From Microthyrium microscopicum (lineage: Eukaryota), in the NCBI GenBank assembly GCA_010405405.1, contig MU004235.1, positions 262,538 through 326,537 on the forward strand: a stretch of DNA of 64,000 bases. The letters run 5' to 3'. This document shows, one piece after another, positions 1 to 29,600 of the stretch; position 1 is the stretch's first letter, and every line of letters begins with the position of its first letter. The notes below the pieces were generated by a model that was not told the origin of the DNA, ran no database searches, and saw nothing but the letters and a program-made list of their open reading frames with translations. The position numbers and the translations under genes are program-made.

Positions 1-1635
1 ACTTTCCTAGCTAAAGTACTTCATTTTTGGGCCGCGCGCTTAAACTAAAGATTGGATTAAGTAAGGTCCGTAACTCTAATGATAGGCCCGCCTTCTATAA
101 TTCTGGTAGTTGGGTTAATACCTACTGGGGTCAACTTATATGCGTCTGCTTAGTTTTGGTAGTAGGAAGTTCTACTCATCATTCTAATCACAGAGAAGAG
201 GTTTTTAGACTAGTTACCTAGCAGACTATAATAGGGACAAAGGGGTGTCGACGAGAAGCTACTAGATGCTTTATGCCAATGAGAGTCGCGATAAAATCAA
301 GAAAAGCATTAAGCCTTAAAAACTTAGCTAGGTTAGTTCTATAGCCCTTATGATCCTTATTAGTCAATCTAAAATTCTAAAGACCTACCGTTAGCGAGAT
401 AATGGCATTGACGATCTAGAGTCGTTGAGCTATCTAAAGAGCTTAGTTCGGTATGCGTGTCTCTTAACTAGCAACGGGGAGGATGAAAATAGTACCTAGA
501 TCATAGTTAATAAGATAGGACGTGAGGAGGCTTACCGTCGTTGAGATATAGTAGTTATTGGCTAGCATAGATAGGCGGCATCGTATGAAATACTTCAGGT
601 ATCGACATGTATTATGTAAAACACTACACGGTAGCTCCGAACAGTAAACTAGTATATATTAGTAAGATTCAGGTGTAAGGGACTTAGCTTAGTGATAATA
701 TAGTAATAAACTAATGTATTAATTCGCGAAGGAGGTGTTTCGAGACTTAGGAGGTAACCTTGATGGCTAGTATGTCTGCTAGAGGAACTCTATAATACTA
801 CAGCATAGATTAGCAGCTATAGTAGGAAGTATACTCATTACAGTATTGGAAATAGGACTACCTATCTAGATCTAGTTACTCCTAAGTAGTTATTCTATGT
901 CTACGGCTAGTAGAGGTCTCTCCTAATCCCTAGAAACCAGAGGAAGAATACTAGCTAGACTAGGGAGCTACTATTGTATACTAGGTCTATAGTCACTATA
1001 TCGTAGATCTAAAAGCCTTAGTTGGAAGCACCTATGAGGCTATTAACTTTACAAAACTGCTCTATAGGGGCTATAAGATGATTCAAAGAGGGATAGCAAG
1101 ATACAAACTAATATACGACTAAAATTATGACCAATATAGCGAAAAATAATTATAATTTAAGGTCGAGATGGTAATGAAGGACGTAAAGGAGATGAGAGGC
1201 CGTTTATTAATGCACTAGATAGCATCAGCGGGTTAGCAACAGTATTAAATTAGACTTAGAATGGTGAGTAGGCAAAAGCTTTTAGGAGGGCATTTAGAGA
1301 ATAGGGATTAAGGGATATTAGTATGGACTTTAGTAACGCTTTATACTATGTCTGCAACTAAGTATATATACCCGTAAGGCAGCTATAGATCTAATTAGCG
1401 CTGTGGTAGTCATAGCTCGACTCGATTATTTTCTAGAGCAGTTAGTATCTAATAGGTTGATTGATAGGTTATAAAGTAGGACAGAATGTATATTCAGTAG
1501 TCAAGGGGGTCACTGTCATGGATAGAGCTTATTAGATGTCACGTTAAAGTATATTACCGCTAAAAATAATGTAATAGTAATGAATATAATGTTTTGTAAT
1601 TAATATAGGTTGTACGTTGGTATAATACCTCATAA

Positions 1636-1728
1636 CTAGTGTCTAGTATCTAGTGTCTAGAGCTAGTGTCTAGAGCTAGTGTCTATTATCTAGTATCTAT
1701 AACTAGTATTTAGAGCTAGTGTTTAGAG
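1636..1728. repeat. Minisatellite, ~7 copies of a 13-14 bp unit (CTAGTGTCTAGAG), inside the RIP block
   Basis: Units begin at 1636, 1650, 1663, 1676, 1690, 1703 and 1716; many differences are G/A transitions. Confidence 0.85.
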
Positions 1729-2319
1729 TCTAGGGTTAGATCCATGGCTACAAAGCTAGAGCTAGTGTTCAGAGTTACTATGGGCTAGCGCTAGTAACAT
1801 GGCAGTTAAATGGAATAGGGTTTAGAAGCATAACTAGGAAAACAAATAGGGAGGACGAAAAGGGGTAATGCTTAGCGTTAGGTTAGATTACTGTTATCTT
1901 CGCCTGATAATAGCTAACAAACTAGATTTCGTTAGCGTAATTAATGAGGCGAATGAAACTTATATCTATAACGTCCTATATGCGAAGACAATAGAGTAAA
2001 ATAAGGCTAGAGAACAAGGCGGAGGTTAGATAACTAATTTTTATGTTAGCAGTCAGAGTATAACAAAGGTAGGTAGCATTTAATGTCCTTAAAAGTTATT
2101 ATTCTTTAACGACTTCTAGAGTGTCATAACAAACGTAATTTTTGATAGCCTAGTAACTAGTCTAGTATCTAGTAGTAATCAATCTAAGGTAAGACAATCT
2201 TAAGCCGTGAGGTATAAGACCTAAGAACTAGAAGCAATCCTAAAGACAGTCCTGAAGCTAGTAACTACAGACAGTGGGCGACATTAGAGGGTATTAGTAT
2301 TAGAACATTTCGCGCTTGA

Positions 2320-5300
2320 CCTAGATAAAATTACGAGCCACGCTAGCATCCACGAGCTTGAGTAGCGCTTAAGCATATATATTATTAGCTAGCGGCTCAT
2401 CTACTTTATATGGAACTGTGAAGAGGTTGTCTAACATAATTGAGGGCAGGCTAATGATAATAGGATTCGTTGAAGTAGACCTATCTAATACCTAGCTAAG
2501 AAGAATAGAGATATAGCGATACTCGTCGCTAAGCACCTTATTATAAGGCTAAGGATCTGTCAACCTAAGGTCTATATTACTTGCAATAATGAAGAGACGC
2601 TTAGTATTATCCTACTTATAGACGAAGATATAGTCAATACGAACGATAGGAGTGGACCTATCTAGGCATAAGACGTATACAAACTAACTAGACTTGAAGG
2701 TGACCTGAGCTTCTAGTTAAGGGCAAGTAAATAACATCTTCTTGACATAATTGAATCTAGAACTAGGCTATATATACAAGTGTGGTATACTATAATTGTG
2801 CTTATATGCATACTAAAGAGCATTCTTAAAGGGCTGCTGTAGTTTACTAGTACGAGTTGGCATGTAGTTAACGTTTCTAGAGTGCGACTCCTTAATCTTG
2901 CTTAACACTAATGGATTAACATAGTCTAGGTCGCCCTTAATCTTAGTGCTGACTTCTTCATCCTTAAGATTACCTTCGTCTTCAAGCACCATACTCTTAG
3001 CTCGTGGAAGAATAGTGTAAAAGAGCGCTAAGTTAGTCTTAAACAAGTTAGCTATAATTTTGGTTAAGACGGGTTCTTCCGTCTTATAAGCATTAGCTAA
3101 GAGTAATTAATAGGTTTGACGCATATTCTGAGCATGGAGTAGATCTTAGCAAGCATTACAGTAGTTAGTATAGTAGATAATTATCTTCTATAGACGATGC
3201 AACATCTTTCTAATTAAGATATTTATGTTTATAGGGTTTGTATACTCTTATACTATGTAACGGTAATAAAGAGCAGTATGAATGTTCGGCAAGGCTAGGT
3301 CCTTTAAGAGTTCTAAGGCTTTGTAACCACGAGGAATACCTTTAGCGTTTAGAGACTAGGGAGTGCTTGCGCGAGAACTACTAGCAATCTTACTTACTTA
3401 GCTCCCTTCCTATGAACCTTCATTAAGCTGTTAATTGAGGAGAGTATTGCTACGGCTACGACTACGACTACGACTATGAGCTTTACCTCTACTACGAGCT
3501 CTACTTTAGCCATGGCTACTAAGATTGAGAGATCGAGCTAGATTGTCAATAAGACCTTAGGCTATTAAGAAGAGAAGCTTCTATAGCTTAGCTTGATGAG
3601 CTTGAATGAGATCATCTAAGTTGTTACAATTATTAAGACTTAAAGGTTCTATTAAGATACTGTTGCTACGAGTTAAGGACGCGTAGTAATTAATAATGAT
3701 GCTAACTAGATCGCGATTAAATGGTATATCTTGTCGTCGCTTAAATATAGCTTAAATATACTTCTCAATATAGCTTTCTCGTAGGGTTACCTAGAGAAAA
3801 GGGGTAATTATATAGGACTAACGAGCATGCTTAGTGATAGTATAGTTTTTAAAGTGGTGGAGTAGACCTTGTGGTGGTAGATAACTAGCTAGGTACGGAA
3901 ATAATTGAAGGGTAGCAGTATAAATCTTAACGCCTTGGCTCGTAAGAAGTTCGGAGAGTAGTAGTTTGTGTATTATTTAAGATAGTCCTTAATATTTAGA
4001 GTAGGCGGAATTAGGAGGGCGTGATATAAGGAGGTCTAAAGTAGGAGAGATGCTAATAAGTGGTGGGTCTTCTATACTAAGTCTATGTTTCGTAGCAAAT
4101 TTGTTTTTTTAGCCTACTGTGTTAAGGTTGTTAAGCTGTTTTCGCAAGACGATAACTTAATAGTAGTAGCGGCCTTCTAAGATAATATTTATGTGGATAT
4201 CAGAGCGAGCGGTAGAGTTAACCCAATAGAAACGACATCCTAGGTTAGCCTTTTAATTCTTCATCCTAGAATTCTCTTGTTGCTAAGGTATATCCTCCGT
4301 GTAAGCGATAGTAGGTACGCTAAACTAGATATTCTGACCGTTAAATCGAACGATTAAGCCTTTATCGACAACTGCTATTCGACGCAACGAGGCAACGACA
4401 TTAGGAAAGTTGCTCCCATGTAGGCTGATCGTTAGAGGGAAGACATTATTTCGTCAATGACGTTATTAGAAGTCTAAGGCTGCTATAATATAATAGACAC
4501 TTATAAGAGATTAGTAAGCGTTTTAGTATAGACTAAAGCCGTCAATGAAAACAAGCACGGGTAGAGATATGCTTTAGATGTTAGTAGTTTGACGATCGAA
4601 ATTCTCTATGTAATTACGTCTCTACGTTCTAAGCTTAAGCTCTCCTTAAGGTAGATGAGTTTGTTTAAGAGGAAAGACCTCTAAATTACTAGAATTAAGC
4701 TTATGTAACACATGACGAACAAGAGTCTTGTTAGTTAGAGTAGTAGTATTAATAGATCGCGTACTAATCTAATTATTACCCTATTTGTAGTCTAACAATA
4801 CGTCAGGGTATTGCCCCTTAATGTTTTCTTTAAGAAGGAAGTAATTGCGATTCTACGATAGCATAGCCTCATTGCGGTAAAGAGGCACTAGGACAGGATC
4901 TAACATCTTACTAGTATTAAGGTCTTATTGCTAACGTACTAGTAGCTTAGATAGGACGTTGATGCCGAAGAGCTTAAAATCATTTAGCCATTGACGTAGA
5001 ACAAGCTAGATTTCTAATAGAACTTGTTTACGGTTTAGGTCTCCTTCTAGGACGCTGCTTATGTAATTTTTGGCCACTTAGAAAACACGACCAAGATAAG
5101 GTGCGTTAGAACGACGACACTAATAATTATGATTATCGCAATAAAAGTACATGAAGTTAGACGGAAAGATTAGTCGCTACCTACTCATAGTATCATCTAT
5201 TAGGTCTAAAGGATAATGTGCGAAATCACTAGATGTAGTTTAGATAGAGGTAGCCTAAGCTTAAGAGTACTAAAGCTCTATAAGATTGTCAACGTAATAT

Positions 5301-6411
5301 GCTATGCTAAAGTACATCTTCTCTATGATATCTAACGCAAGGATGCGAACAAACAAGTTAATTAGATTAAAGAAATATGCCTTCTCCGTTTTTGAGACTA
5401 ATAACTAATCTAGATTAAGTATGATATCTTAAGTGCGTGTTTTGATTAATAGTAACTACTCAATAGTCTAACGCTTTAGTATAGTAATATTAGTTGGAAG
5501 ACCGTGGACTTCTATAGCAAGTTCTAGTATTTTTATAATGCCTAGAAGTGAAGTGAACAATGCTCAAGAAATTCTGGCTTCTTTGCACTAGAGGCCTAGA
5601 GCTATGCGGAAGCGTGTCGGAGGTATAGAAGAGCGCTTATAAGCCACTAGCTCTAAGGGATCCTCTAGGTCGTAATTAATTCTACTAAAAGCAGACTCTT
5701 CGTTAGACTCGTTAAGCTTATCGTTGACTAGCTCTTCTTCGCTCTCTAATGGTATTAGATCTTTATCCTAATTAAATGGCTTAGTTGGTACTATCTCTTT
5801 AGCGGATGGCTCGTCGAAAGGCTGCTTAAATTGTTAATTTGTAGTAAACTCTGCCAAGTCTATGTTTAGTAGAAACTCTGTTGAGGGAAGAATGATATCT
5901 CCGTTGAATTCGTCTAAATCTTAGTATATGTTAACCAAAAAATGTTAGTATAATTCTAGATGTAACCTACTTCATCTTATCCTTTAATGTCGATTTAACG
6001 AAGAATACGTATAAGTGGATCATCCTATAAGGGTTAGATTTAGGACTATTATAATTGCATAGCACGGCTTACAATATCCTAAATAGATGGGTTGAGCCCT
6101 ATTAGATTCGGATTAATAGCGTCGTCCTCTACGGTAGGCAGTTAGTAACCTAGACCAACCTAAGTGTCTGTTTCGTTGGCTTTAGGGTTATTAAACGTAT
6201 CAGCATAGCGGCTATTAAAGTCTTGTTGATTATCACCTAGTTCTTATTAATACTCATTGTCATTATTACCTACATCGAACATAAGCATATCATTATCCTG
6301 AGCAGATAGGCTAGGAGCTTAATCATCTTGAGCAGACGGGCTAGGAGCTTAATTATATACTGCGCAGCGATAAGGGTCCTTAAGACGGGATATTCTTCGA
6401 AAACTAGACAT
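2320..6411 (-). pseudogene. RIP-inactivated DDE transposase of Plavaka/CMC (Transposase_21-related) type
   Basis: Hand translation through stops, in order: ALGL*CKEARIS (~5570-5605); EL*YS*A*ATSI*TTSSDFAHY (~5215-5280); LPVLVFIDGFSLY*NAY*SL (~4510-4565); FPLTISLHGSNF; YTEDIP*QQENS then LGCRF (~4230-4305); SRPPNSAYSKY (~3995-4025); PNIHTALYY...EY (~3240-3290). ATG at 6411 and a likely intron near 5915-5965. The 3' end is approximate. Confidence 0.75.
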
Positions 6412-6837
6412 TGCTACAACTAGAATAAGCGTAGGTGGTAGAAAGTAAGCCGGTAGGATCAGACTTAGTGGATGGATGGAATGCTAAGGGATAATAAAGG
6501 AAGTAGTAGATGGATGAAGTAGTGGATGGATAAAGTGGTAAATAGATGAAGTGGTAGATAGTAAAGTGTTAAGAGACAAACGTTTATAGCCTTAGGTTAT
6601 ATGAGCAGCTACCTGCAATGTACCTGCCTTAGGCGTAGAGATGTGGTAAGTTATTACTATAGAAAGAAGGCATAATGCTAGTAAAAGGAAGGAGCACTAT
6701 ACTAGGGAGGCAGTCGCGTAGACTTAAAAGAATTATAAAGTACCACCTCGTAAGTCTTTTTTGGCATGTTAATCTATATTATAATCACGATCACGATTAT
6801 CATTAAGTAAATAATAAAACTTATATACGCAAACACA

Positions 6838-7283
6838 ATGTCCTCTTAAGCACTATTTCCTCTAACCTCTTCTCCTCCCGCGTCTTCTTCTCTAGGGTCC
6901 TCCTCGCCCCTACTAAGCGCTTAATTAGGTACTACTCTGGGTCATGGTGATTCAGATTATATTAATCTAGTAGCTTTGTTTAATAATGCTCCTCTTTCTG
7001 CTCTTCCTACTCCGTCTCATAAGCTATACTATTCCCCTTTTATAGATTCTGTAATAGCTAATTATTGTTGCAGTGCAAGAGGCTATTAGTCGCCTAGAAG
7101 AGGCGATGAGTTTAGTTCTAGAGATAGAATAATTGGGTGAGACTAAAAATCTGCTATGGTTAAGAGCCTATATATTTAAAATGCAAGTCAAAGCAAAGCC
7201 GTTTGTAAGGGTAGAAGGTGAAGGAGAGGAGGATGCTGCGATAGAGATAGATAGTAAGACGAAGGTTGAGAACTTAAGTTAAT
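6838..7283 (+). pseudogene. RIP relic of a small Ser/Pro-rich gene, divergent from the transposase
   Basis: ATG at 6838 in acaATG context; reads MSS*ALFPLTSSPPASSSLGSSSP...WLRAYIFKMQVKAKPFVRVEGEGEEDAA with only RIP-type stops. Confidence 0.45.
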
Positions 7284-7999
7284 AGGATATATTAATATAC
7301 TAACATCAATAACCCTATGCTTCGTCCTATCGTAACCTTTAAAATACTACACTATGAGAGTTAGAGACAATGTAGGCCAAAAGGATTAACAATATAAGAC
7401 GGCTATTGCAGCAACTAAGGAACATTATATGATATTAGAGAAGGGCCATAAATTAGTGACAAATAATTTATTATCCTAATGCAATAGATAACAAACGAAC
7501 AAACAAACACTTTTGGTGGTAAGACCCTAAACCTGAATATCTATGAAGTTCAAAACCCCGAGTCGAACCCTTTTTTGTTACGGCTAAGTAGGTTAAATCG
7601 ACCGTTGAAGAGGAGGATTAAGTTCACCTAATCGAGATACTTGACCGAAATAATGCAATAGGAAACTAATACAATAAGAACTAGTAAGCAGCTCGATAAC
7701 AATACGAGTTGTTGAAATTATATAGCATATGCTAGCATAAAAGAGCTGCCAGAAATAAAGGGTATTAAACGCCGTTGAATACGGTTAAAAGCAAAAACTT
7801 TTTTACCATCCCGCTGTGAGAAGCAATCTATAAACTAATGCTGAGATAGCAAGCTGAAGAAGTGCCAAAATAAGAGAGTAATCGTAAAGAAAGAACATAA
7901 AGCTAACAGAAGTCGAGAGAATTAAAAGCTAAAGGTAACAAAGAGCAACAACAAGCAGCTAAAATATCAAAAAAGAAATAGTCAACAGTTAGTTGGACG

Positions 8000-10368
8000 A
8001 GCTAGTTCAAGAGTCCTATATAAACGTTTATTAGCGATACTCTAGTAAGAGTTAGTATGTAGTTCTCCATTTTCGTCACCTACATACTAAATTTCTCCTC
8101 TATATCCTATCTCCTCCTCTACTAGATCTAATGCACGAGCGCGCGGATTAAGACGTTCGTAGTATGGTTGAGTATGACTAGCATTAATGTCAGGATAGAT
8201 ATTTGGGTTCCTAAATAGTAGGTCTTAGAATTGCGGATTAATAGCAGAGCTGGATACTTTAGAACCGCGTGTAGCTAAAGGAGAACTATCTTCTTAACTA
8301 AGAAATAGATCCTCTTAATTGGCAGTAGCACCTTGCTCTTAAAGATTGCGATTAAGATCCTTAGAATACTCCTTAATTGGAGGCAAAGTGGCCTACTTAT
8401 TAAGACGAAGTATAGAGAGGGTAATATAACCCTTTCTCGCTTGCTTAACTTCGGCCTTGCGCTTTGATTGACTAGCCTAGAAACCTTAGCCAATAATCTA
8501 AAAGTCGGTAAGATTAATATTATTCTAGTTTTCGTGAAGAGTAGCAACATTAAGACGAATGCTGATAGCCTTATCGCGTTTGTCTTTAAGAGCCTAGTTA
8601 TTAATAGCGGTGCTAATAGGGAAGGAGGTAAGTAACTTAGCGGCTGCTATATAGACGTTGACCCACATAGCTTTAAGATGTTAGTATAAATCAAGATGAG
8701 AAGTAAAGAGGATATACTTTTCATAAAATGCTTTCTAAGACTTAGGCTCTAGGTATAGGTGACTACATCCTTAATATGCGAGAAGACCTAATAATAGCTT
8801 AGAATACTAAAACGATTCTTAAACTACTGAGCGTAATAATCCTAATTAAAAGGCTCTCTACGCAAATTAGGCTTAGTAGTAAGGACCTTATAGACCTGCT
8901 TCACAATACGCTTATAAATATACTTCTTATGAGAACAATAAGCCTCTTGCGTGAGGCCTCATGTACATATAAAGACATTATTAAAAGAGCCAAATTTACC
9001 GTCGATAAAGATGGCATTCATGATATTAGGCAAGTTTTTGTTGTTCTAAATTAGCAACATGTTGAGCTTAATATATTGTATTATGCGCTTATAATAGTAC
9101 ACGTCCTTCGCCTTAGTGGCTTATGTAACTGCTTTGTGCTATGGATCTTAAAGTTCACGCACGAGCATAGAATTATCCTCGACGGCTTTATGGATCTCAG
9201 TACGAGACTTTGCGTTGATAATAGAGAGCTATAGTTCTTGCAACTCTAAAACTGCAGCAGAAGTTGAGGATAGACCTCTAGGAGAATATGATGGAGTAAT
9301 AGGAGAGGCTCTAAGACGACTAACTAATGCTAAGCCTAAAGGCAAAGGGTAGGTCTACTAATGAGCGCGAGGACTAGCAAGCTAACGTGGTGTCTGTAGT
9401 AGAGCACTTAAGGGAGTAAAACCTTGAGACGTAGAAGCTAATAATCTAGCCTAAGATGCTAAGCGCAAAGTAAGCTAACGTTAAGCAGAGGGTTAAGCTT
9501 AAGAAAGATCGATACGTGGAATAGTAGCACGTATAGAGCCATATAGAATAGGGGTCGAAGCGTGACGACGCTACAACTCTTCATAAACCTAACGTAATTG
9601 CTTTTCTTCTTCGTTTAGATCTTGCATATATGTAGCGTCTAAATTAATCTCCTACTAGCAAATTATCTTATTTTCTACAATAGTGTATAATAGGTTATTC
9701 ATAAGAGGGTGAAATACAGCTAGCGAAATACCAAGCTTAGCATCGCGTACAGTGTTAGGATAGTCAATAGAAGCTAGTAGCAGAGGTATAGCAGGTAAGT
9801 TAGTGTTACTACCAGACTATGGGGCCCTACTAGGACCTCTAGGTCAGAGAGTAGCCAGCACGGGACGCAAGTTTCGCTAATTATACACAGAGGTGTAGTT
9901 AGCGTTATATTATAGCGTCCAAAAGTTTTGCGCAAAGCTCTATCTGATGTTAGCAAACTATTTACGAGAGTCAAAAGGGAAACCTAGACTTACCTCTCGC
10001 AATGGAGTAAAAGGACGGTTATCTTAGAGAGTTTAAGTGCTAGTGCTACAACGAAGTTGTTGTTAAATGTCAATCTCAATTGGACGCAGATTCTAATAGC
10101 TGCTAAAACCGCGCAGAGGCTGCTAAGCAGAAGTGCTACGCGTAGGCACAAAAAGACGTTTGCTAGGCGCATTAGAGGCACTCAACTCTGGCTGAACGGT
10201 CGCACTAGGATCGCGCGCAGGAGTTAGAGTGCCCTCGTTGCTACCATGGCCACTACTACTACCACGGCCACGGCCGCGACGTGCTGCTGTATCTGATCAA
10301 TGTACTCCAGTACCACGACCACCGCCACGCGGACTACCCGTACTAGGGCTAGTGCTAGGCGAAGACAT
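8000..10368 (-). pseudogene. RIP relic of a second large element-borne gene (RG-rich N-terminus; possible TnpA-like accessory protein)
   Basis: ATG at 10368; MSSPSTSPSTGSPRGGGRGTG...ARRGRGRGSSSG; GTAAGT donor near 9990; coding-like relic continues to ~8,000 (end approximate). Confidence 0.5.
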
Positions 10369-20167: not shown

Positions 20168-23100
20168 ATGGATTTCCATACTTCTGCATCTGGTGCTCAG
20201 TCGAATGCAGGAGCACCTTCCTTCCGACTACCAATGCGTCCTGCAAGCAATCTCAATTTGGGAGCCGGACAGTTAGCCAATGGCTCCTGGCCATTGCATT
20301 CCGTTACGGGCCAATATGGTGATAGCAATGGCGGAGGATCCACGATGTCAACACCGCAATCACATTCACAGCCACAGCCTGCCCAGACTGGCCAGCACTT
20401 CAATCAGCAAGTGCCTTCTGGTACTAATGGCTTCGGCAATCATATCCAGCACCAAGACAACCACAACTCCAATACCTCGCTCCAGCAATTACCTCTTAGC
20501 TCACAAGGCAATGGTGGTGTCAATAGCCAGCACCAATTTGGTACAGTAGGACACGCCATGGATCAGTCGCATGCCCACGCCGGTCACCTACACAATCCTA
20601 CTCCATATGCAAACGGTGCTGGCCTTGGAGCGCCAGGCCTATCCTTCACTCAAGGCAACTACCAGGCGCCAGTTGATGGCGCGCAATCTGGACAGCAACA
20701 ATTCTTTACGCCGTCGAACTTCCAACAACTTCCTAACCACTCCAACCACTCCAATCAACACAATGTCAATCAAAGCTTCCATCATAACGCATTATCGCAG
20801 CAACCTACTGCGCAGACCGGCAATAGCAATACGAATCAGAGCTACCATAACCATGCACAGCATGAGCATCCAGATGCCCATCGAACTCGCCTTTACCGTT
20901 TCGTCCAGTTTTCCAACCAGTGGAAGGAAGATGCGAGACTTGACTTAATTCGGACACTTTGTAAGACTGACCAGGACGCACTGGTCAACTTTGGACTTCT
21001 CAGCAAATGTAAGTTTTGGCTCCCCTATTTTTTGATTCCCGCTCCCACCATCACCACCACCACCATTCCCACAACTCCCAACTCCCACCACCAGAAGCTC
21101 CCATCCAACTTCCCAAAGAAGTAATCGTTATGCTTCTTTTCACAATAATGGCATGGTCTTATTGTCCCGCCCAGCCACCCGAATAGAAAATTTTGCAACA
21201 CCCTCTTCCTCCCACATCCTCCCTCTCTCTCAGACAATCCTCAGAACACTCTCAAACTTCACTCTATTCACATCTTCACCGCGACACTTCTTACTACTTT
21301 CGGTTTCCATCCAAACTTCACTATCAAGCTCCTAGCGTCTTCTGGTCTTCGACGGTTCTTTTAAAGCCGTTGTTCCTCGACGTCAAGGACTCAACCTCTT
21401 CACCACCTCATCCGCTACTCAACTCGCTTCAGTATATTTTATATCCATTATCTTACTCAATTCCTTCTAGCTCTCGCTCATCAGCTTCTACATCCCGAAA
21501 TGGCTCAATCCAAGGTCGCTATGGCTTCAAAGGCCTCAAAGCTCAAGCCTGGTCGCTATCGTGAAAAGCGCAAGTTGACTCGATGGACTCGTAAGTTGCC
21601 CGCATTAACTTTGCTTCTTGATACTAATGCGCACGCAGCGGAGAAGCTCATGGAGACTCTGTCGGCCATATGGCATGCTTACCGCTGCAAGATGATCGAA
21701 CTTCCGATGGACTGGCTTGCTCAGGAAATTGACTCCAGCCCAACTGCGATCGCGCAGATGTTCGACCGTCGTCATCGTGAGTTTTACGAAGGTGGAGCCA
21801 TTCGAGGACCTTATCGCTTGAAGCCGGAGCAGGAACTCAGTATTTATCCCTTGGACCTCATTTCTGGATTCTTCTAACTATCTGGCAGAACGCAAGCAGT
21901 CTCGCGCAAAGTCAATCAAACAATTGGAGAATGGTGGCTGGGAAGAAATCGAATTCATCGTCGAGGAAATGGACGGTCCCTCCGACTCTGGCTCTGAGGA
22001 TGATCCTGCTGAAGAGCCAGCCAAGTCCGTGAAGAAAGAGCTAGCTTCTGCTCATGAGTCTTCCTCTGCTACTACGGATGGACTTCCACCACTCAAGAAG
22101 AGCAAGCATACCAAGTGTATCGTCACCAACCGTCGCCCGGCTAAGTCTACACCTTCTCGCACCCCTATTGTCAAGCGTAGTGCTGCTCGCAAGCCCGCTG
22201 GTCTTCGCGTCTCTACGGATACCAAAGCTGCCACTGTCAATGGCCAGCAGGAAACTTCTCGTGCCGCTCAGGGTGTCTCCAACTCTACGCAGTTCCAGAA
22301 CAACTTCAATGGCGGAAGCACAACTCCTGGTTTTGCTCCGCTCTCCGCAACTGCACCTCCACAGGGTCTTTTAAGCTATTCCAACACCTATGCCTTGCCT
22401 GGTCAATATTTTAACCAGCCTGGCACTCCGATCCCTTCTCAGAACAACGGCACGGTCAACTACAACCAGTCCTTCCCTCCAGGCAGCCCCGCCATGAGCT
22501 ATGTATCTGCCCATGGCTCTACTGCTAGCATGGCGAACCAATCCTTTCCACCAAATCCATGGTCTACTTACTCCATGAATGATTTCGGAGCTGCAAATGC
22601 TGCCAATGCTGCTTATCAGAGCAACGAGCACATGGGAAATGTCATGAACTCTTCGTATGGACATCCTTCCCAGCAAGACTCACGTCACGCCACCCCTCTT
22701 GAGGGTCTCCGCTACAGCAATGCTTACGCCGATGCCACTGCTTCTCCTTTCGTTAGCAACGCCGCTCCTCATCATCGTCGCCATGATTCAGTCACGAGCC
22801 AAACCTTCAAGGGCAAGGCCCCTGTCAAAAAGTCATCTTCTCCTCCTGTCTGCGATCAGAAGCCTGTTGCACGTCCATCAAACATGGCCACTCATCTCAA
22901 CGTACCTCTTGGAGCCATTCGCCACAATGGACAATTCGATCCAAATTTCCCAACTGTCTCTTTGCCAATGGGTTATGGTACTCATATGCAATCTGCCAAT
23001 GCAGACATGAACTCTCAAGCTGGTGCTCAGTTCTTTGCTGCCTCTCCTCCTCAGGATGATGAGTTAACGTTCATTTCCGCCAATGCTGTACAGCAACCTC

Positions 23101-23843
23101 CTCCTTCAGCGGGACTCCAGTGGGAAGCCAATGCTGCTGCTCAGTTATCTGCTTTCAACGCTGGCCATAATGTTGACTCTCATTGGGCTTCTGCAAATGG
23201 CGCTCAGAACACTGACATTGAGATGGCTTCACAAGCTTTTGTTTCTCCTGCTCATACTGTCACCAATTCTCCTGTCGACATGAATGATCAGAATGGCCAG
23301 CAGTTTCATCACAATGGCTTCACCAATGCTAATGTGAATCACCATTCCGTGCCTACAATTGAGGCGACAGAGCAAGGTCATGGCAATGCTGCCTTTGTCG
23401 AGCAAGCAAACCATTCGTCTTCTCCTCGCGAAGTCGCCGATACTCATGAGGAGTCTCTCTTCCAGGCAGCCAATGGTCCTACCAATGCTGCTGAACAAGA
23501 CAGCTCCGCAGGCTTCGATGAGTACTTCAACATGGACGGCGGCGCTACCGACTCTCAAGTTCCCTCCGACGACCCCAATGCACTCAGCATGTTTCCTTCC
23601 AGCAACACCGAGGATGCGGGCCAGAATTGGTCTTCCGACGCTGCTCATTATGGCAACGAGTATTCAGACAATTGGCTTGCGGATCACGGTGATCATGATA
23701 TGGGAGCTTCATCCTCTGGTTTCTTCCAAGAATCAGCAGGCAACGGAATGCTCTCCAACGACATGGGTGCCGCAATGTTCCAGGACTCTTACTCCAACTT
23801 CACTCACGAAGAGTTGAACCAAGAACCCTCCTATTCCTACTAA
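20168..23843 (+). CDS. Large Q/N/H/S-rich low-complexity protein with a central Myb/SANT-like domain (putative transcription factor)
   Basis: Introns 21009-21470, 21591-21638 and 21840-21888 join three listed ORFs in frame; the spliced core reads RKLTRWTPEKLMETLSAIW...IELPMDWLAQEIDSSPTAIAQMF. Joining the first exon depends on the 462-nt intron being real. Confidence 0.7.
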
Positions 23844-26396
23844 GCTTTCGACCAAGGAATTTGACAGGTCATCTCTTCGATCTTTCAACGAGCATTTACA
23901 GCGAGCCTGCGTGTTTTTCCCAGCAAAAACCGATTGAAGGTTCCTATCGGCGATATCGTCGCTCTCACGCTCTTACTTTGGATCGATGCCCTTGTCCTTT
24001 CACATTCCTACCGACTTTCCATTTCTACCACACACAACGTTAAAAAGCACAACATAACATCAAACATACTCCCTTCCACCTGCACAAAACTGGCTTTTGT
24101 GCATCGATGGCTCGGGTTTTAATCATGCATATTTTTCCTTTCTGCATAAATATCCACGGGTTATTCGGAATGGCGAAACTGGTTTTGGTCTTTTCTCTCT
24201 AACGACCTCAGCATTATACCCTTTTCCAAATGTCAACCTTGCATCACTGGCGTTATACTCACCTCAAGTCGATCTTTACATCTTGGTTCTTCACATGTGG
24301 AACAAACCGGTTATTCTCTGCACTTGTGCAGACTTTGGCTGAAAAGTATTTATTATTCTGGTGCGGGTTTGAATGGTGTTTGAAAATTGGGTTTCTGGAT
24401 GGTTCTTGTTAGCCTTTTTAGTTACCACCAAAAATAGTTAGTTGTTGTTTCAATTGAAATGATTACATGTAAATCTTGTTGTTGTGCTTCTCATCCTTGG
24501 TGTTATGCTTCTCGTCCTTGATGTTTAATGCTCCACTCACCGCTTCGCAGATGTACTGAAACAAAAGGGCAAAATCATTTTCATATAATGTAGCCTGGCT
24601 GACATTGTGCCATAGCAGTTGACATTGATCCACTAGAGATTTGCTCAGGTAGTCTAACAAAACTTACTCGCAGCATTGACTCTTGGTGGTGGTCTGCTAT
24701 GAGATGAAGTTGAGATAGCCTCCGTGCCCTCAGCCTCGTGCCGACCACGAGTTTAGCCCTGGGGACCCACGTTTTGACGATACCCGAAGATAATATCCCG
24801 ATGACACCTGCCGAGTTCGGAAGATCCATAGTAACATCGCATCTAACAACACACAAAGCCAAGATCATAGCAGCTTCCATTGCGGATATCTGCCCTCATT
24901 GCGGATCCGGTTATCGCGTAATCTGAGCAACATCGACAGCGCAAAGTACTTGCTCCTGCAATATCATCGCCGCAATAAGCATTCGACCAGTAAGGATTCA
25001 CGCCATGCGGCTTCAGATGGCACTTGAGTCTGGCCAGCGCCACAGATAGATCAAGTTATGTTTGATAAGTGGTTTCTTGATGTCGGGGCCGATGAGGCTC
25101 ATGGCTTAACTACGGGACGCACACTAGATGCACCGTTACATTGGGCTATCGGAAGCAAGGGGAATTATACCAGAAAGTGCCGAACCGCCGAGATGGGCTT
25201 TTGCACACACCACACATAAGTTCGCGGGAAAGGGCTAGGCCAGGGTCGTCCATGGTATTTTGAAGCTGACGCAAAGTCGTGAGATGTCGTCGGATGTTGC
25301 TTCCATCGGCTAATTAACATCGGAAGCTGGATCCGACGACTGAAACAACGCTCCATAGCGGCGGAACGTTCCGCATCATCGAATCCTAGGTACGACACCA
25401 AATCCAAGAAGATGAAGTCTGGGGAAGGCTAGCGTATCCTTTCTAGGTGCTTTGCATCAGGTCAATGGTCTATCCACTACATCTCTTGCGAGAACTTCAG
25501 CACCCATTATTGCGGACCGCTCATCTTGCCCTGACAGAACATTCGGAACTGTTAACTACCCACACGAGTGCTGATGGTGGATTTGATACCTGCTGGTGCT
25601 GATAGCGTTACAATTCGATATTGGAAGCCTCCGGATCAGTCACTCGGATATGAACCAGGGAGCTTTAGCAAGGATTCAACGTCTTGCATCATGATAGTTG
25701 CACCTATTCCATGGTCATGGTGCGAATACCCTGTCAGGATAACTCATCTTCAACTCAGAGCACCATCTCAAAGTACGATTGAGGGACATCGCTTGTGGCT
25801 GTCGTAAACAGGCAGCTTATGCCGCCAAAGGGCAGTAATCAGCAAACTGAAGTGCGCGTGAGCGAAAGAATATAAGTGTTTTGACGTCATGACTTTTTGG
25901 CGATGCATTGGTCGCGAAGTGGTCCAATGACGGGCATTATGGCATAAGTTCATTGTTCCGGGGTAGCTTTTTGCTTTTTCGAGTTTTCAACGCCTTCGTG
26001 AGTTTGATGGCTACGAGGTATACTTTCAAGAACCGGGTTGAGCCAGATTTGCTACCGCACTCGCGTAAATTGCGCTTGTGTGACAGATGGGGCGTTCTGG
26101 GATATCGAGTCCGCTTTCTGTATCGTAAGTTGCAAATTAAACCAGTAGGATGTTGAATTTGAGAGTGGAAGCTAGCCAGCTCACAAGCTCAAAGGTGCAG
26201 CGAGCACCGCGTCTTCGCCCAGGAATCGATCCACCACGAACCGCCATGTCGGATTATACGACTTCCATCACAGTGTTCCAAGTATTTCGGACACTATCCG
26301 ATAATGTGAACTTTGATACTCAGAAGTCAGACCGCCTTCCAGGACTAACCATTTCAGTGGTCAAAGCTTGACTCGATGTTTTGGATGAGTAAACGC

Positions 26397-26545
26397 TGAC
26401 GGAGCAGGAACGCCCCTAGGGGCGTTTCACCCCTCTAGGGAGGGTATTTTAGGGGCCCGCAGTAGCTGTTCTTCATGTCTTTAGCAACATCTTTTATAAC
26501 AGCAATAAACCATCTAATCCTCTGCCACTACGAACACGAAGAACA
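26397..26545 (+). repeat. 5' LTR
   Basis: TGACGGAGCAGG...CACGAAGAACA; no mismatch seen against 27226-27374. Confidence 0.95.
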
Positions 26546-27225
26546 ATCTGGGGGCTGAACCACGGAGTGGTACGATTCGAAGATGCTTATCTTAACATCC
26601 TTATGTTTCTCAAAGCTCCTCACCGTCTTGTCGATGACGACGACCAATCCTCTCCTTTGAACGTTACCTTTCATCAACAACAATCATCAGAAACATATCG
26701 TTGACCATCGAAAGCCATGTCGTTGAAGCCACGGCCAACAGATCTCGCTGTTTGACGACCAAATCGATCCTTCTTTCGTCCTTTTTGAGCCATTTTACCA
26801 TTTTTGAGAACGGCTAGACAATCATTGCCCCGAGCCAACCTTCCCAACGAGTCCCGGCCCCACCACCGAAATCACATACAAAGAGCGGAACGAACCGGGC
26901 ATCAGGCCCATAACCAGCGGTTTTTTGATGAGAAGAATTGAGATGTTATTGAACTGACGGGTGACCCTGAGTTGTGGCACGCCGGGTAGTCAATTGAACA
27001 AGATATGAAGTGAATTGGAACTAGCTGGGAATCCCCGGGAAGAACGATCTAGTCCTCGGCATTGATATAGAAAGGGGTATGTGAGAGAACCGGCAGATTC
27101 AGTGGATTTGGTCAACGAAGAAAGAAGCAAAATGAATGCGTTTGAAGGCACGGTGAACAAGAGATCTCAACACCAAAATTGAAGCTTGAGATACCTATCT
27201 CAAGCTTGCTCGTTGTTAGGATGGT

Positions 27226-27374
27226 TGACGGAGCAGGAACGCCCCTAGGGGCGTTTCACCCCTCTAGGGAGGGTATTTTAGGGGCCCGCAGTAGCTGTTC
27301 TTCATGTCTTTAGCAACATCTTTTATAACAGCAATAAACCATCTAATCCTCTGCCACTACGAACACGAAGAACA
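27226..27374 (+). repeat. 3' LTR
   Basis: Copy of 26397-26545, preceded by a short purine-rich AGGATGG. Confidence 0.95.
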
Positions 27375-27758
27375 ACGCCACGGAAGGCAGTACCTTGTAG
27401 ATCGTACTGCTTGGGGCTCCCTGAATCCACAGTCCCCGCAAACCCCAACATCTTACCTCTTAGCGGCGCATGTTCTGGCAGACTTGACCCCAATCTCCTC
27501 TTTCATCCTTGATCGTGTGCACGTGTGGTGCATATTTCATTCGCCTCTTACTGGACCTTGTATTCAATTGGCCAGAGGCATGTCGTGGCGCCGCTCGAGG
27601 GTTATGCTGCGTTGCAGAGCACTACTGATGTCACCGCAAGAATAAATACTGGGGTGAGCCTCCAATTACTCGGAATTCACATCTGAAAGCTGGCATTTCT
27701 CACCTTCTATTGACTTTGACTATCATACATATACATTGAATAGTCGAATACAACAGCT

Positions 27759-29600
27759 ATGCCACTTGCGTTGAAAAAGCCCGAGGGCGAGCCAGGAGCA
27801 GCATGGCCTGCTATTATGGTCGGAGTGTTTGTTGCATTCGGTGGTGTTCTTTATGGGTTAGCAACATGAACAACTCTTGAACAGAAATTGAAGCTGACAA
27901 TGAGACAGATACGACACAGGAACCATTAGCGGAATATCCGCAATGGACTTTTGGCTCCACAGCTTCGCCGACAAATCCAACAACTATATGCTCACATCTT
28001 CGCAAAACTCCCTGATTGTCTCCATTCTCTCGGCTGGTACTTTCTTCGGTGCCTTGTCTGCTGCGCCATTGGCAGATCGCGTAGGTCGTCGCATTGGTCT
28101 TATGTTATCCACTGGCATCGTTTTCAACTTTGGCGTTATTCTTCAAGTCGCTTCGACTAGCCGACCATTGTTTATTGCTGGACGATTCTTTGCAGGTCTT
28201 GGTGTAGGTTTGGTTTCTGCACAAAGTAAGTTCTCCCAGGGAAGTATATATGGATTCGAGTACTAACAACTCGTAGTCCCCATGTACCAATCAGAGACTT
28301 CTCCAAAATGGATTCGCGGAACAGTTGTAGGATGCTACCAGCTAGCAATCACCATCGGTCTCTTCCTCGCAGCCATTGTCAACAATTCCACCAAGGACCG
28401 ACAAGATAGTGGCTCGTACAGAATTCCAGTTGCCATTCAATTCCTCTGGTCCATCATTCTGGTCACAGGTCTAATCTTCTTGCCTGAGACGCCTCGATTC
28501 CTCATCAAGAAAGACAAGCGACAAAAGGCCGTTCATTCTCTCAGTAGACTCCGTCGTCTTCCTGAAGATCATCCTGCTCTTGAAACCGAAATTGCCGAGA
28601 TCGAGGCAAATCACAGATATGAGATGTCTTTGGCTTCAAGTGCCTCATACGCCGACTGCTTCCGTGGGACTATTGGAAAGCGAACACTTACTGGATGTGC
28701 TCTCCAGGCTCTCCAGCAACTTACAGGGTATGTCTAGAGAATTAACTGTCAATTTTGCTCAGAATGCTAATGAGGAATATAGTGTCAACTTCATCTTCTA
28801 CTATGGAACACAATATTTCAAGAACGCAGGCTTCCAAGATCCATTCATCATCCAAGTGATCACCAATTGCGTCAACGTCGCCTCCACATTCCCTGGTCTC
28901 TACGCAGTCGAAAAGGCTGGCCGTCGTAATCTTCTCCTCTTCGGTGCAATTGGCATGGTAAGTCATACAACTTGCTCCTACGAATATTGTTATAGAAAAC
29001 ATATGCTAACATACCTCACAGTGCGTCTGCCAATTTATCGTAGCCTCCGTCGGCGTCTCCACCCCCGAAACTTCTCTTCCCGCCCAACGCACCGCCATCG
29101 CCTTCGTCTGCATCTACATCTTCTTCTTCGCCTGCTCCTGGGGTCCCGTCGCCTGGGTCGTCACCGGCGAACTCTACCCCCTCAAAGTCCGCGCCAAGTG
29201 TCTCTCCATGACCACCGCATCCAACTGGCTACTCAACTGGGCCATCGCCTACGCCACACCCTACATGGTCGATCCCGACCACGCAAATCTGAAGAGTAAA
29301 GTATTCTTCGTATGGGGCAGTTTCTGCTTCGTCTGCATCGCCTTTGTCTACTTCATGATCTACGAGACCAAAGGTCTATCGCTCGAAGAAGTCGATGAGT
29401 TGTACGGTATGGTGTCACAAGCTCGCAACTCCAAGAAATTTATCCCCGCTGTGCGCTTCTCGGAGGTGGAGAAGGATGGGTATGATGGGCGGAAAATGTC
29501 GTTGGCGGAGATTGCGCAGGGACAGACGAGGAGACGGAGTAGTGTGGCGCCTGGTGGTTTGGCGCATGCCGAGAAGGGTCAGGCGGAGAAGCTTGGTTGA
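27759..29600 (+). CDS. MFS sugar porter, high-affinity hexose transporter (RCO-3/MstA-like), multi-exon
   Basis: MPLALKKPEG...FVAFGGVLYG|YDTGTISG; DRVGRR; PETPR; QQLTG|VNFIFYYG; VEKAGRR; YETKG; four canonical introns. Confidence 0.93.

What the first reader, a model, noticed from the sequence alone, without database searches (positions are those of the whole stretch)
26393..27378. Intact, very young non-coding LTR mini-retrotransposon (TRIM-like) untouched by RIP
Seen: 978 bp, two identical 149-bp TG...CA LTRs, TSD ACGC, PBS-like and polyadenylation signals, no coding capacity, and CpA/TpG still abundant in the interior, in a genome whose larger repeat 15 kb away is heavily RIP-mutated. Known: TRIMs are best described in plants and animals, and RIP needs a minimum homology length (about 150 bp for closely linked repeats in Neurospora, more for unlinked ones). 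Inference: a recently mobile family that borrows Gag/Pol from a Ty3/Gypsy-type helper. Its LTR length may sit just below RIP detection, or it inserted after the last sexual cycle.
Basis: partly seen in the sequence, partly recalled or inferred. Interest (0 to 1): 0.75.

Follow-up and report, generated by a model that had tools for sequence, protein, structure and literature searches.

The report
Single-copy miniature LTR retrotransposon in a fungus
A 978-base, gene-less retrotransposon copy with two identical 149-base end repeats sits just upstream of a sugar-transporter gene in a Dothideomycete fungus; it is real and appears in RNA, but it is one lone copy of an already known kind of element.

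Summary
Window 26397-27374 is a 978-bp element with two 100% identical 149-bp TG...CA terminal repeats and a 4-bp ACGC duplication. It has no ORF over 83 codons, no Pfam or Rfam match, and background-like RIP indices. In three DNA runs of one sample the interior has the same depth as the flanks, so it is single-copy. The LTR is at about 2x. Only a few diverged LTR relics exist elsewhere. So this is one lone copy, not a demonstrably "recently mobile family", and a single-copy interior is not a RIP substrate, so no RIP evasion needs explaining. Zero differences in 149 bp bounds the age only to under about 1-10 My. No helper was found: the RIP-like AT-rich block at 1-10000 shows no pol domain and no similarity to the element. 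New here: an RNA run holds the interior at about 6-13 times the depth of its neighbours. The downstream sugar-transporter mRNA contig stops 15 nt inside the 3' LTR, about 32 nt after a TATAA box, which hints that the LTR supplies that gene's start site. TRIMs, and their escape from RIP through small size, are already published for Dothideomycetes. Verdict: a new member of a known kind, of modest interest.

The parts
26393..26396 (+). Target-site duplication ACGC, left copy
   Evidence: Read directly. The same four bases follow the 3' LTR. A chance match has odds of 1/256.
26397..26545 (+). 5' LTR, 149 bp, TG...CA. It carries an 18-nt palindrome at LTR 13-30, TATTTTA at 49, TATAA at 99 and AATAAA at 108.
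   Evidence: 100% identical to 27226-27374. The LTR contig is at about 2x flank depth in DNA runs.
26546..27225 (+). Non-coding interior, 680 bp. A candidate primer-binding stretch starts with TGG at 26549. A 12+12-nt hairpin palindrome lies about 30 nt before the 3' LTR. The purine tract AGGATGG at 27218-27224 is weak.
   Evidence: No frame over 83 codons. 0 of 18 frame pieces reach a Pfam curated cut-off. No Rfam family reaches its gathering score across 26200-27600. Single-copy depth in DNA, and depth 1927 in the RNA run against 148 and 336 for its neighbours. The fold is no better than shuffles, z -0.14.
27226..27374 (+). 3' LTR, identical to the 5' LTR. The downstream mRNA contig begins at 27360, which is LTR position 135.
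   Evidence: table 8, record 4: the contig ends at 27360, whereas DNA contigs reach the graph limit at 27346.
27375..27378 (+). Target-site duplication ACGC, right copy
   Evidence: Read directly.
27759..29299 (+). Neighbouring MFS sugar-transporter gene. The ATG is at about 27759, 381 bp after the element. Introns lie at 27856-27907, 28226-28276, 28727-28781 and 28957-29020. It is not part of the element but may be driven by its 3' LTR. The gene runs beyond 29299, and its 3' end was not mapped.
   Evidence: Pfam Sugar_tr E 1.4e-17 on 28475-29299. Four GT..AG joints appear in run X1 only (table 5). The start codon was read.

Best explanation
This is one complete insertion of a non-autonomous, non-coding LTR retrotransposon of TRIM size (978 bp, 149-bp LTRs) in a Dothideomycete genome. 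The closest named proteins are from Microthyrium microscopicum. It was made by reverse transcription and integration using proteins supplied in trans, which left the 4-bp ACGC duplication. That mechanism is inferred from the anatomy. Today it is a lone copy, and its LTR family survives elsewhere in the genome only as a few diverged LTR pieces. It carries no RIP footprint because nothing in it is a RIP substrate: the interior is single-copy and the LTR pair is only 149 bp. The copy is present in RNA well above its neighbours, most simply through transcription from its own LTR. TATAA is at LTR position 99 and AATAAA at 108, which would place the polyadenylation signal in U3 (inferred). The identical 3' LTR probably also provides the start site of the downstream sugar-transporter mRNA. 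This last step is a hint only.
For: Anatomy: identical 149-bp TG...CA repeats, the ACGC duplication, and TGG 4 nt after the 5' LTR. There is no coding capacity or known RNA family. The LTR is a discrete repeated unit: diverged relatives in the DNA contigs start or stop their likeness at the LTR ends, at 27224/27226 and 26545/26547 (tables 7 and 8). Copy number: X2 flanks 109.8/104.5, interior 96.9, LTR 218.1; X3 119.3/117.8, 119.3, 228.6; X4 1074.7/1023.2, 1084.5, 2059.9. RNA: X1 shows four GT..AG intron skips that no DNA run shows. The intron-holding bins fall exactly as expected if the introns have zero depth, so X1 is RNA with little DNA in it. In X1 the interior contig (26516-27255, 0 other letters) has depth 1927, against 148 for the upstream flank and 336 for the transporter mRNA. 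The transporter contig ends at 27360, 14 nt short of where a read-through contig would be cut (27346), and 32 nt after the last base of TATAA. RIP indices match the genome background.
Against: No tRNA was available to test the candidate PBS. The purine tract is weak, only 7 nt with one T. The loose ends of relatives show a non-purine GTTCCAC before the LTR. No second copy of the interior and no helper was seen, so mobility is inferred from structure alone. If the start site is at LTR position 135, R plus U5 would be only 15 nt, which is marginal for strand transfer. Contig depth is a poor measure of expression and gives no strand. The RNA could be antisense, or part of the transcript that also covers the ORF-less upstream flank (24588-26426, depth 148). 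All DNA runs come from one sample, which may be the assembled strain itself, so they are not independent proof of the insertion. 22 contig pieces and 2 loose ends were not shown.
Confidence: 0.75

Rival explanations
1. One reading: this is a currently active TRIM family that multiplies with a Ty3/Gypsy helper and escapes RIP because its LTRs are just under the length RIP can detect, or because it inserted after the last sexual cycle.
For: The LTRs are identical and RIP indices are clean. The RNA run holds the element. Published precedent exists for high-copy TRIMs with high G+C in P. nodorum (passages).
Against: The interior is at 0.9-1.0x flank depth in 3 of 3 DNA runs. No interior variants were reported at >=80% likeness, and only diverged LTR relics were seen. 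No pol domain or related sequence occurs in the window. Identical 149-bp LTRs allow an age of up to about 1-10 My.
Confidence: 0.1
2. This is an internally deleted remnant of one autonomous LTR retrotransposon copy that lost gag-pol in place. On this reading it never moved as a 978-bp unit.
For: It is single-copy. The PPT is weak and the PBS unverified. Relatives share a few bases with the interior's 3' end before the LTR (table 7). An RNA contig in X1 runs from the LTR's end into a different sequence, which could be another element's interior (loose end behind 26545).
Against: No gag or pol trace was found in 18 interior frame pieces. The identical LTRs and the intact 4-bp duplication show only that the two LTRs belong to one insertion, which fits both readings. 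No autonomous relative could be fetched for comparison, because no genome is held and two metagenome scans returned 0 hits each.
Confidence: 0.12
3. It is not a retroelement: a local 149-bp direct duplication or a recombination product that resembles LTRs by chance.
For: No PBS-tRNA match or clear PPT could be shown.
Against: The TG...CA ends and the matching 4-bp flanks each have chance odds of about 1/256. TATA and AATAAA are present in the repeat. The same 149-bp unit recurs elsewhere in the genome as diverged copies whose likeness stops at the same ends.
Confidence: 0.03

Closest known systems
TRIMs (terminal-repeat retrotransposons in miniature). The definition from Witte et al. 2001 is recalled; the paper was seen only as a reference entry.
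   Same: Under 1 kb overall, terminal direct repeats of 100-250 bp, TG...CA ends, no coding capacity, a target-site duplication, and a position next to a gene.
   Different: The duplication is 4 bp rather than the usual 5 bp. The PBS is unverified and the PPT weak. The interior is single-copy here, whereas TRIM families are defined by many copies.
Fungal TRIMs in Dothideomycetes: RLX_TRIM_Sinope of Parastagonospora nodorum (PMC8549362, passages read) and the TRIMs of Cochliobolus heterostrophus (PMC4112212, passages read).
   Same: Same fungal class, the same kind of short non-autonomous LTR element, and a G+C content not lowered by RIP.
   Different: Sinope has 793 copies across isolates and those elements average under 400 bp. 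This one is 978 bp and present once. No sequence comparison was possible with the tools.
Retrozymes: small non-autonomous plant LTR elements with hammerhead ribozymes, 4-bp duplications and abundant RNA (recalled; no paper read).
   Same: Small and non-coding, with a 4-bp duplication and RNA abundance out of proportion to copy number.
   Different: No hammerhead or any other Rfam family reaches its gathering score across 26200-27600, even with the listing opened to E<=5. The LTRs are 149 bp, not about 350 bp.
LTR-derived promoters of host genes, i.e. solo or 3' LTR exaptation (general knowledge, recalled).
   Same: The neighbouring gene's mRNA contig begins inside the 3' LTR, downstream of its TATA box.
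   Different: This rests on a single contig end in one RNA run. No strand, cap or empty-site comparison is available.

Membership tests
TRIM (non-autonomous LTR retrotransposon) | Two terminal direct repeats of about 100-250 bp with TG...CA ends | tested here: met
   149 bp, 100% identical, TG...CA.
TRIM (non-autonomous LTR retrotransposon) | Total length under about 1-1.5 kb with no gag or pol | tested here: met
   978 bp. The longest frame is 83 codons. 0 of 18 frame pieces reach a Pfam curated cut-off.
TRIM (non-autonomous LTR retrotransposon) | Target-site duplication | tested here: met
   ACGC on both sides. It is 4 bp where 5 bp is more usual (recalled).
TRIM (non-autonomous LTR retrotransposon) | Primer-binding site complementary to a host tRNA 3' end, next to the 5' LTR | tested here: inconclusive
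   TGG starts 4 nt after the LTR. There is no tRNA gene in the window and no genome is held. No self-priming complement of 7 nt or more was found.
TRIM (non-autonomous LTR retrotransposon) | Polypurine tract directly before the 3' LTR | tested here: inconclusive
   Only AGGATGG, followed by T. Relatives show GTTCCAC there.
TRIM (non-autonomous LTR retrotransposon) | A multi-copy family: other full copies, solo LTRs | tested here: not met
   The interior is at 0.9-1.0x flank depth in 3 of 3 DNA runs of one sample. Only diverged LTR pieces occur elsewhere. A whole-genome search was not possible.
TRIM (non-autonomous LTR retrotransposon) | An autonomous partner sharing LTR ends and PBS | not testable with these tools
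   No genome is held. There are no pol domains in the window's AT-rich block, and two metagenome scans gave 0 hits each.
Retrozyme | Hammerhead ribozyme in each LTR | tested here: not met
   No hammerhead match at E<=5 across 26200-27600 on either strand.
RIP-affected repeat | TpA/ApT above about 0.89, (CpA+TpG)/(ApC+GpT) below about 1.03, composite index above 0 (thresholds recalled) | tested here: not met
   The interior gives 0.43, 1.24 and -0.81. The AT-rich block at 1-10000 meets all three, with 1.54, 0.70 and +0.83.

The most novel reading that the evidence does not exclude
The lone copy is kept because it works as a two-promoter module. The 5' LTR drives an abundant 0.7-kb non-coding RNA. 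The identical 3' LTR supplies the transcription start (LTR position about 135, 32 nt after TATAA) and a 399-nt leader with four upstream ATGs for the adjacent MFS sugar-transporter gene. A miniature retrotransposon would then have rewired sugar-transporter expression in a saprotrophic Dothideomycete.
Probability: 0.25. Interest if true: 0.45.

Novelty: new member of a known kind. Interest (0 to 1): 0.27.

Why it matters
This is a clean, complete example of a miniature LTR element in a little-studied fungal order. It shows that a clean RIP profile needs no special evasion when the sequence is single-copy. If the LTR really provides the transporter's start site, it would be a small, testable case of a transposon rewiring a nutrient-uptake gene. 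Otherwise it is an ordinary annotation item for the repeat library of this genome.

Tried and rejected
- **Whole genome:** none is held for this window, so copy number, solo LTRs, a helper and tRNAs could not be searched directly.
- **Earlier findings:** nothing for this genome or for the LTR sequence. The one 'relative' returned shares 3 of 180 words and concerns an unrelated bacterial ATPase.
- **Metagenome scans:** the first 30 nt and the last 30 nt of the LTR each gave 0 matches.
- **Runs listed as RNA:** no RNA holder is listed as such. X1 is labelled 'RNA?' as a guess. I treat it as RNA only because of the intron joints seen.
- **AT-rich block at 1-10000 as a helper relic:** 66 stop-free pieces of 40 aa or more gave only two chance-level rows. 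Six frames read with X at stops gave 0 families at E<=0.01. Blastn with word size 7, and an ungapped purine/pyrimidine scan designed to see through RIP transitions, found nothing above background; the best LTR score was 102 of 149. Its identity stays open.
- **Known RNA families, including hammerheads:** three chance-level rows, none inside the element proper.
- **Global RNA structure of 26531-27374:** z -0.14, and 9 of 20 shuffles fold at least as well.
- **Tf1-type self-priming:** no complement of 7 nt or more between the first 45 interior bases and the element.
- **RIP in the one diverged LTR copy whose differences were listed:** 9 substitutions, 5 transitions and 4 transversions, none in CpA/TpG context, plus a 6-nt insertion. 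This is not RIP-like.
- **Literature on repeats or RIP in Microthyrium:** two searches returned only incidental mentions.
Full report
**Observation**

The sequence is as described. A perfect direct repeat lies at 26397-26546 and 27226-27375, and nothing else like it exists in the 64-kb window. 0 of 100 shuffles gave two matches to its first 48 nt. The 150th shared base is a coincidence of the flank. The natural parse is a 149-bp LTR beginning with TG and ending with CA, flanked by ACGC on both sides (26393-26396 and 27375-27378). The element is 978 bp and its interior 680 bp.

No stop-to-stop frame exceeds 83 codons. None of 18 interior frame pieces reaches a Pfam family's curated cut-off; the only row at E<=1 is a chance-level match. 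No Rfam family reaches its gathering score; three chance-level rows at E<=5 lie in or across the flanks. The LTR holds an 18-nt perfect palindrome at positions 13-30, TATTTTA at 49, TATAA at 99 and AATAAA at 108. TGG begins 4 nt after the 5' LTR. The purine tract before the 3' LTR is weak, AGGATGG only.

**Organism and setting**

The surrounding ORFs are fungal: an alpha-amylase-family enzyme, an RsmB/NOP2-type methyltransferase, a TCP-1 chaperonin subunit, a tannase and a WH1/WH2 protein. The tannase frame is 97% identical to a protein labelled Microthyrium microscopicum, and the next hits are at 69% or lower. This points to a Dothideomycete of that genus.

The element lies at the end of a 2.5-kb stretch without long frames. 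It sits 381 bp upstream of the start codon of an MFS sugar-transporter gene on the same strand.

**RIP**

The first 10 kb of the window is 37% GC with TpA/ApT 1.54, (CpA+TpG)/(ApC+GpT) 0.70 and a composite index of +0.83, which is RIP-like. The element's interior gives 0.43, 1.24 and -0.81, close to the rest of the window at 0.64, 1.32 and -0.68. So "untouched by RIP" is correct.

**Copy number**

No whole genome is held, so I used public runs. Five runs hold 96-97% of the element's sampled words, and four of them were laid on 25400-29400 at 80% or more likeness.

In the three DNA runs, all from one sample, the depths were:

| Run | Upstream flank | Downstream flank | Interior (26517-27255) | LTR |
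|---|---|---|---|---|
| X2 | 109.8 | 104.5 | 96.9 | 218.1 |
| X3 | 119.3 | 117.8 | 119.3 | 228.6 |
| X4 | 1074.7 | 1023.2 | 1084.5 | 2059.9 |

The interior is therefore single-copy, and the LTR is present twice at full identity. No variant letters were listed inside the interior.

Elsewhere in that genome there are a few diverged LTR relatives:
- One contig of about 1 kb matches 27224-27344/56 with 11 other letters and a 6-nt insertion.
- A 29.8-kb contig holds a more diverged LTR whose likeness ends at 26547.
- Another contig shares the first 33 LTR bases and then drifts.
- The last 48 LTR bases have 2.4-2.8x depth in X3 and X4, which suggests a third exact copy of that end.

Their likeness begins or ends at the LTR boundaries, so the LTR is a genuine repeat unit. 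The nine substitutions listed for one relative are 5 transitions and 4 transversions, none in a RIP context. Limits apply here. 22 contig pieces and 2 loose ends were not shown. The DNA runs may come from the very strain that was assembled.

A single-copy interior is not a RIP substrate. The LTR pair at 149 bp is under the shortest duplication reported to be RIPed, 155 bp against a usual ~400 bp (passage read). The clean RIP profile therefore needs no evasion mechanism and does not require a post-meiotic insertion.

Zero differences in 149 bp bounds the age loosely. The 95% upper limits are about 1, 2 and 10 My for assumed rates of 1e-8, 5e-9 and 1e-9 per site per year.

No helper was found. 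The AT-rich block shows no Pfam domain in 66 stop-free pieces or in six frames read through with X at stops. It has no likeness to the element, even in purine/pyrimidine coding that is blind to RIP transitions. Two metagenome scans for the LTR ends found nothing.

**RNA**

Run X1 is RNA. It alone shows four GT..AG joints in the transporter gene, and the depth of the intron-holding bins falls exactly as if the introns had zero cover. In X1 the interior contig (26516-27255, no other letters) has depth 1927 and the 149-nt LTR contig 682. The upstream ORF-less flank (a contig of 1839 nt reaching to 26426) has 148, and the transporter mRNA 336. So the lone copy is represented in RNA about 6-13 times more than its neighbours.

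Contig depth is crude, and contigs give no strand. The lower LTR value fits loss of cover at transcript ends, but it also fits an interior-only RNA.

The transporter contig ends at 27360, which is LTR position 135. That is 14 nt inside the point (27346) where a contig running on into the LTR would be cut, and where the DNA contigs are indeed cut. This looks like a true 5' end lying 32 nt after the TATAA box of the 3' LTR. It would give a 399-nt leader with four upstream ATGs.

By symmetry the element's own RNA would start near 26531. AATAAA would then lie in U3, so it would be used only in the 3' LTR. R plus U5 would be at most 15 nt, which is marginal for a replication-competent element. These last steps are inference from one contig end.

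**What it is**

The best-supported reading (0.75) is one complete insertion of a non-autonomous LTR retrotransposon of TRIM size, now a lone copy of an old, low-copy LTR family. It is transcribed, and possibly lends its 3' LTR promoter to the neighbouring transporter.

The rivals are:
- An active RIP-evading family (0.10).
- An in-place deletion remnant of an autonomous copy (0.12). It cannot be excluded because no full-length relative could be fetched. An X1 contig that leaves the LTR end into a different sequence may be such a relative.
- A non-retroelement duplication (0.03).

It is not a retrozyme, because no hammerhead was found. The RNA shows no unusual global folding (z -0.14) and no Tf1-like self-priming complement.

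**Comparison with what is known**

TRIMs are already reported in Dothideomycetes. In P. nodorum they number 1229 insertions, with RLX_TRIM_Sinope at 793 copies. [quoted passage not shown] Nine TRIMs are annotated in C. heterostrophus (PMC4112212, passages). Further fungal surveys mentioning TRIMs appeared in the search listing only. Two searches for repeats or RIP in Microthyrium found only incidental mentions.

The element meets the structural TRIM criteria: size, terminal repeats, TG...CA ends, a target duplication and no coding capacity. It fails the multi-copy criterion. The PBS and PPT remain inconclusive.

**Verdict**

It is a new member of a known kind, and interest is modest (0.27). 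The one lead worth following is the possible LTR-driven start of the sugar-transporter mRNA, together with the abundant non-coding RNA.

Noticed in passing
window 1-10000: An AT-rich block (37% GC) with a strong RIP-like dinucleotide skew: TpA/ApT 1.54, composite index +0.83. It has no recognisable protein domain in any frame, even when read through stops with X, and a short CTAGTGTCTAG-type tandem at 1636-1728. Its origin is unknown.
   Followed up: partly
window 24588-26426: A 2.5-kb stretch with no long frame between the 673-aa ORF (21822-23843) and the element is covered by an 1839-nt RNA contig at depth 148, which runs at least 30 nt into the 5' LTR. It could be a non-coding transcript, a long UTR, or an antisense transcript leaving the LTR.
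   Followed up: no
window 29097-29161 and 29349-29387: In the DNA runs a second contig matches these transporter-gene segments with 10 and 7 other letters, and has 236 different letters in place of the 187 between them. This is probably a paralogous sugar-transporter gene elsewhere in the genome.
   Followed up: no
window 26409-26426 (and 27238-27255): An 18-nt perfect palindrome (LTR positions 13-30) is followed by a second short hairpin at LTR positions about 33-48. In one diverged LTR relative, 4 of the 9 substitutions fall in that second hairpin. These may be protein-binding or RNA-structure sites in U3.
   Followed up: no
window 21822-23843: A 673-codon open frame, rich in Q, N, S and A, has no Pfam match. 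It is probably a low-complexity fungal protein.
   Followed up: no
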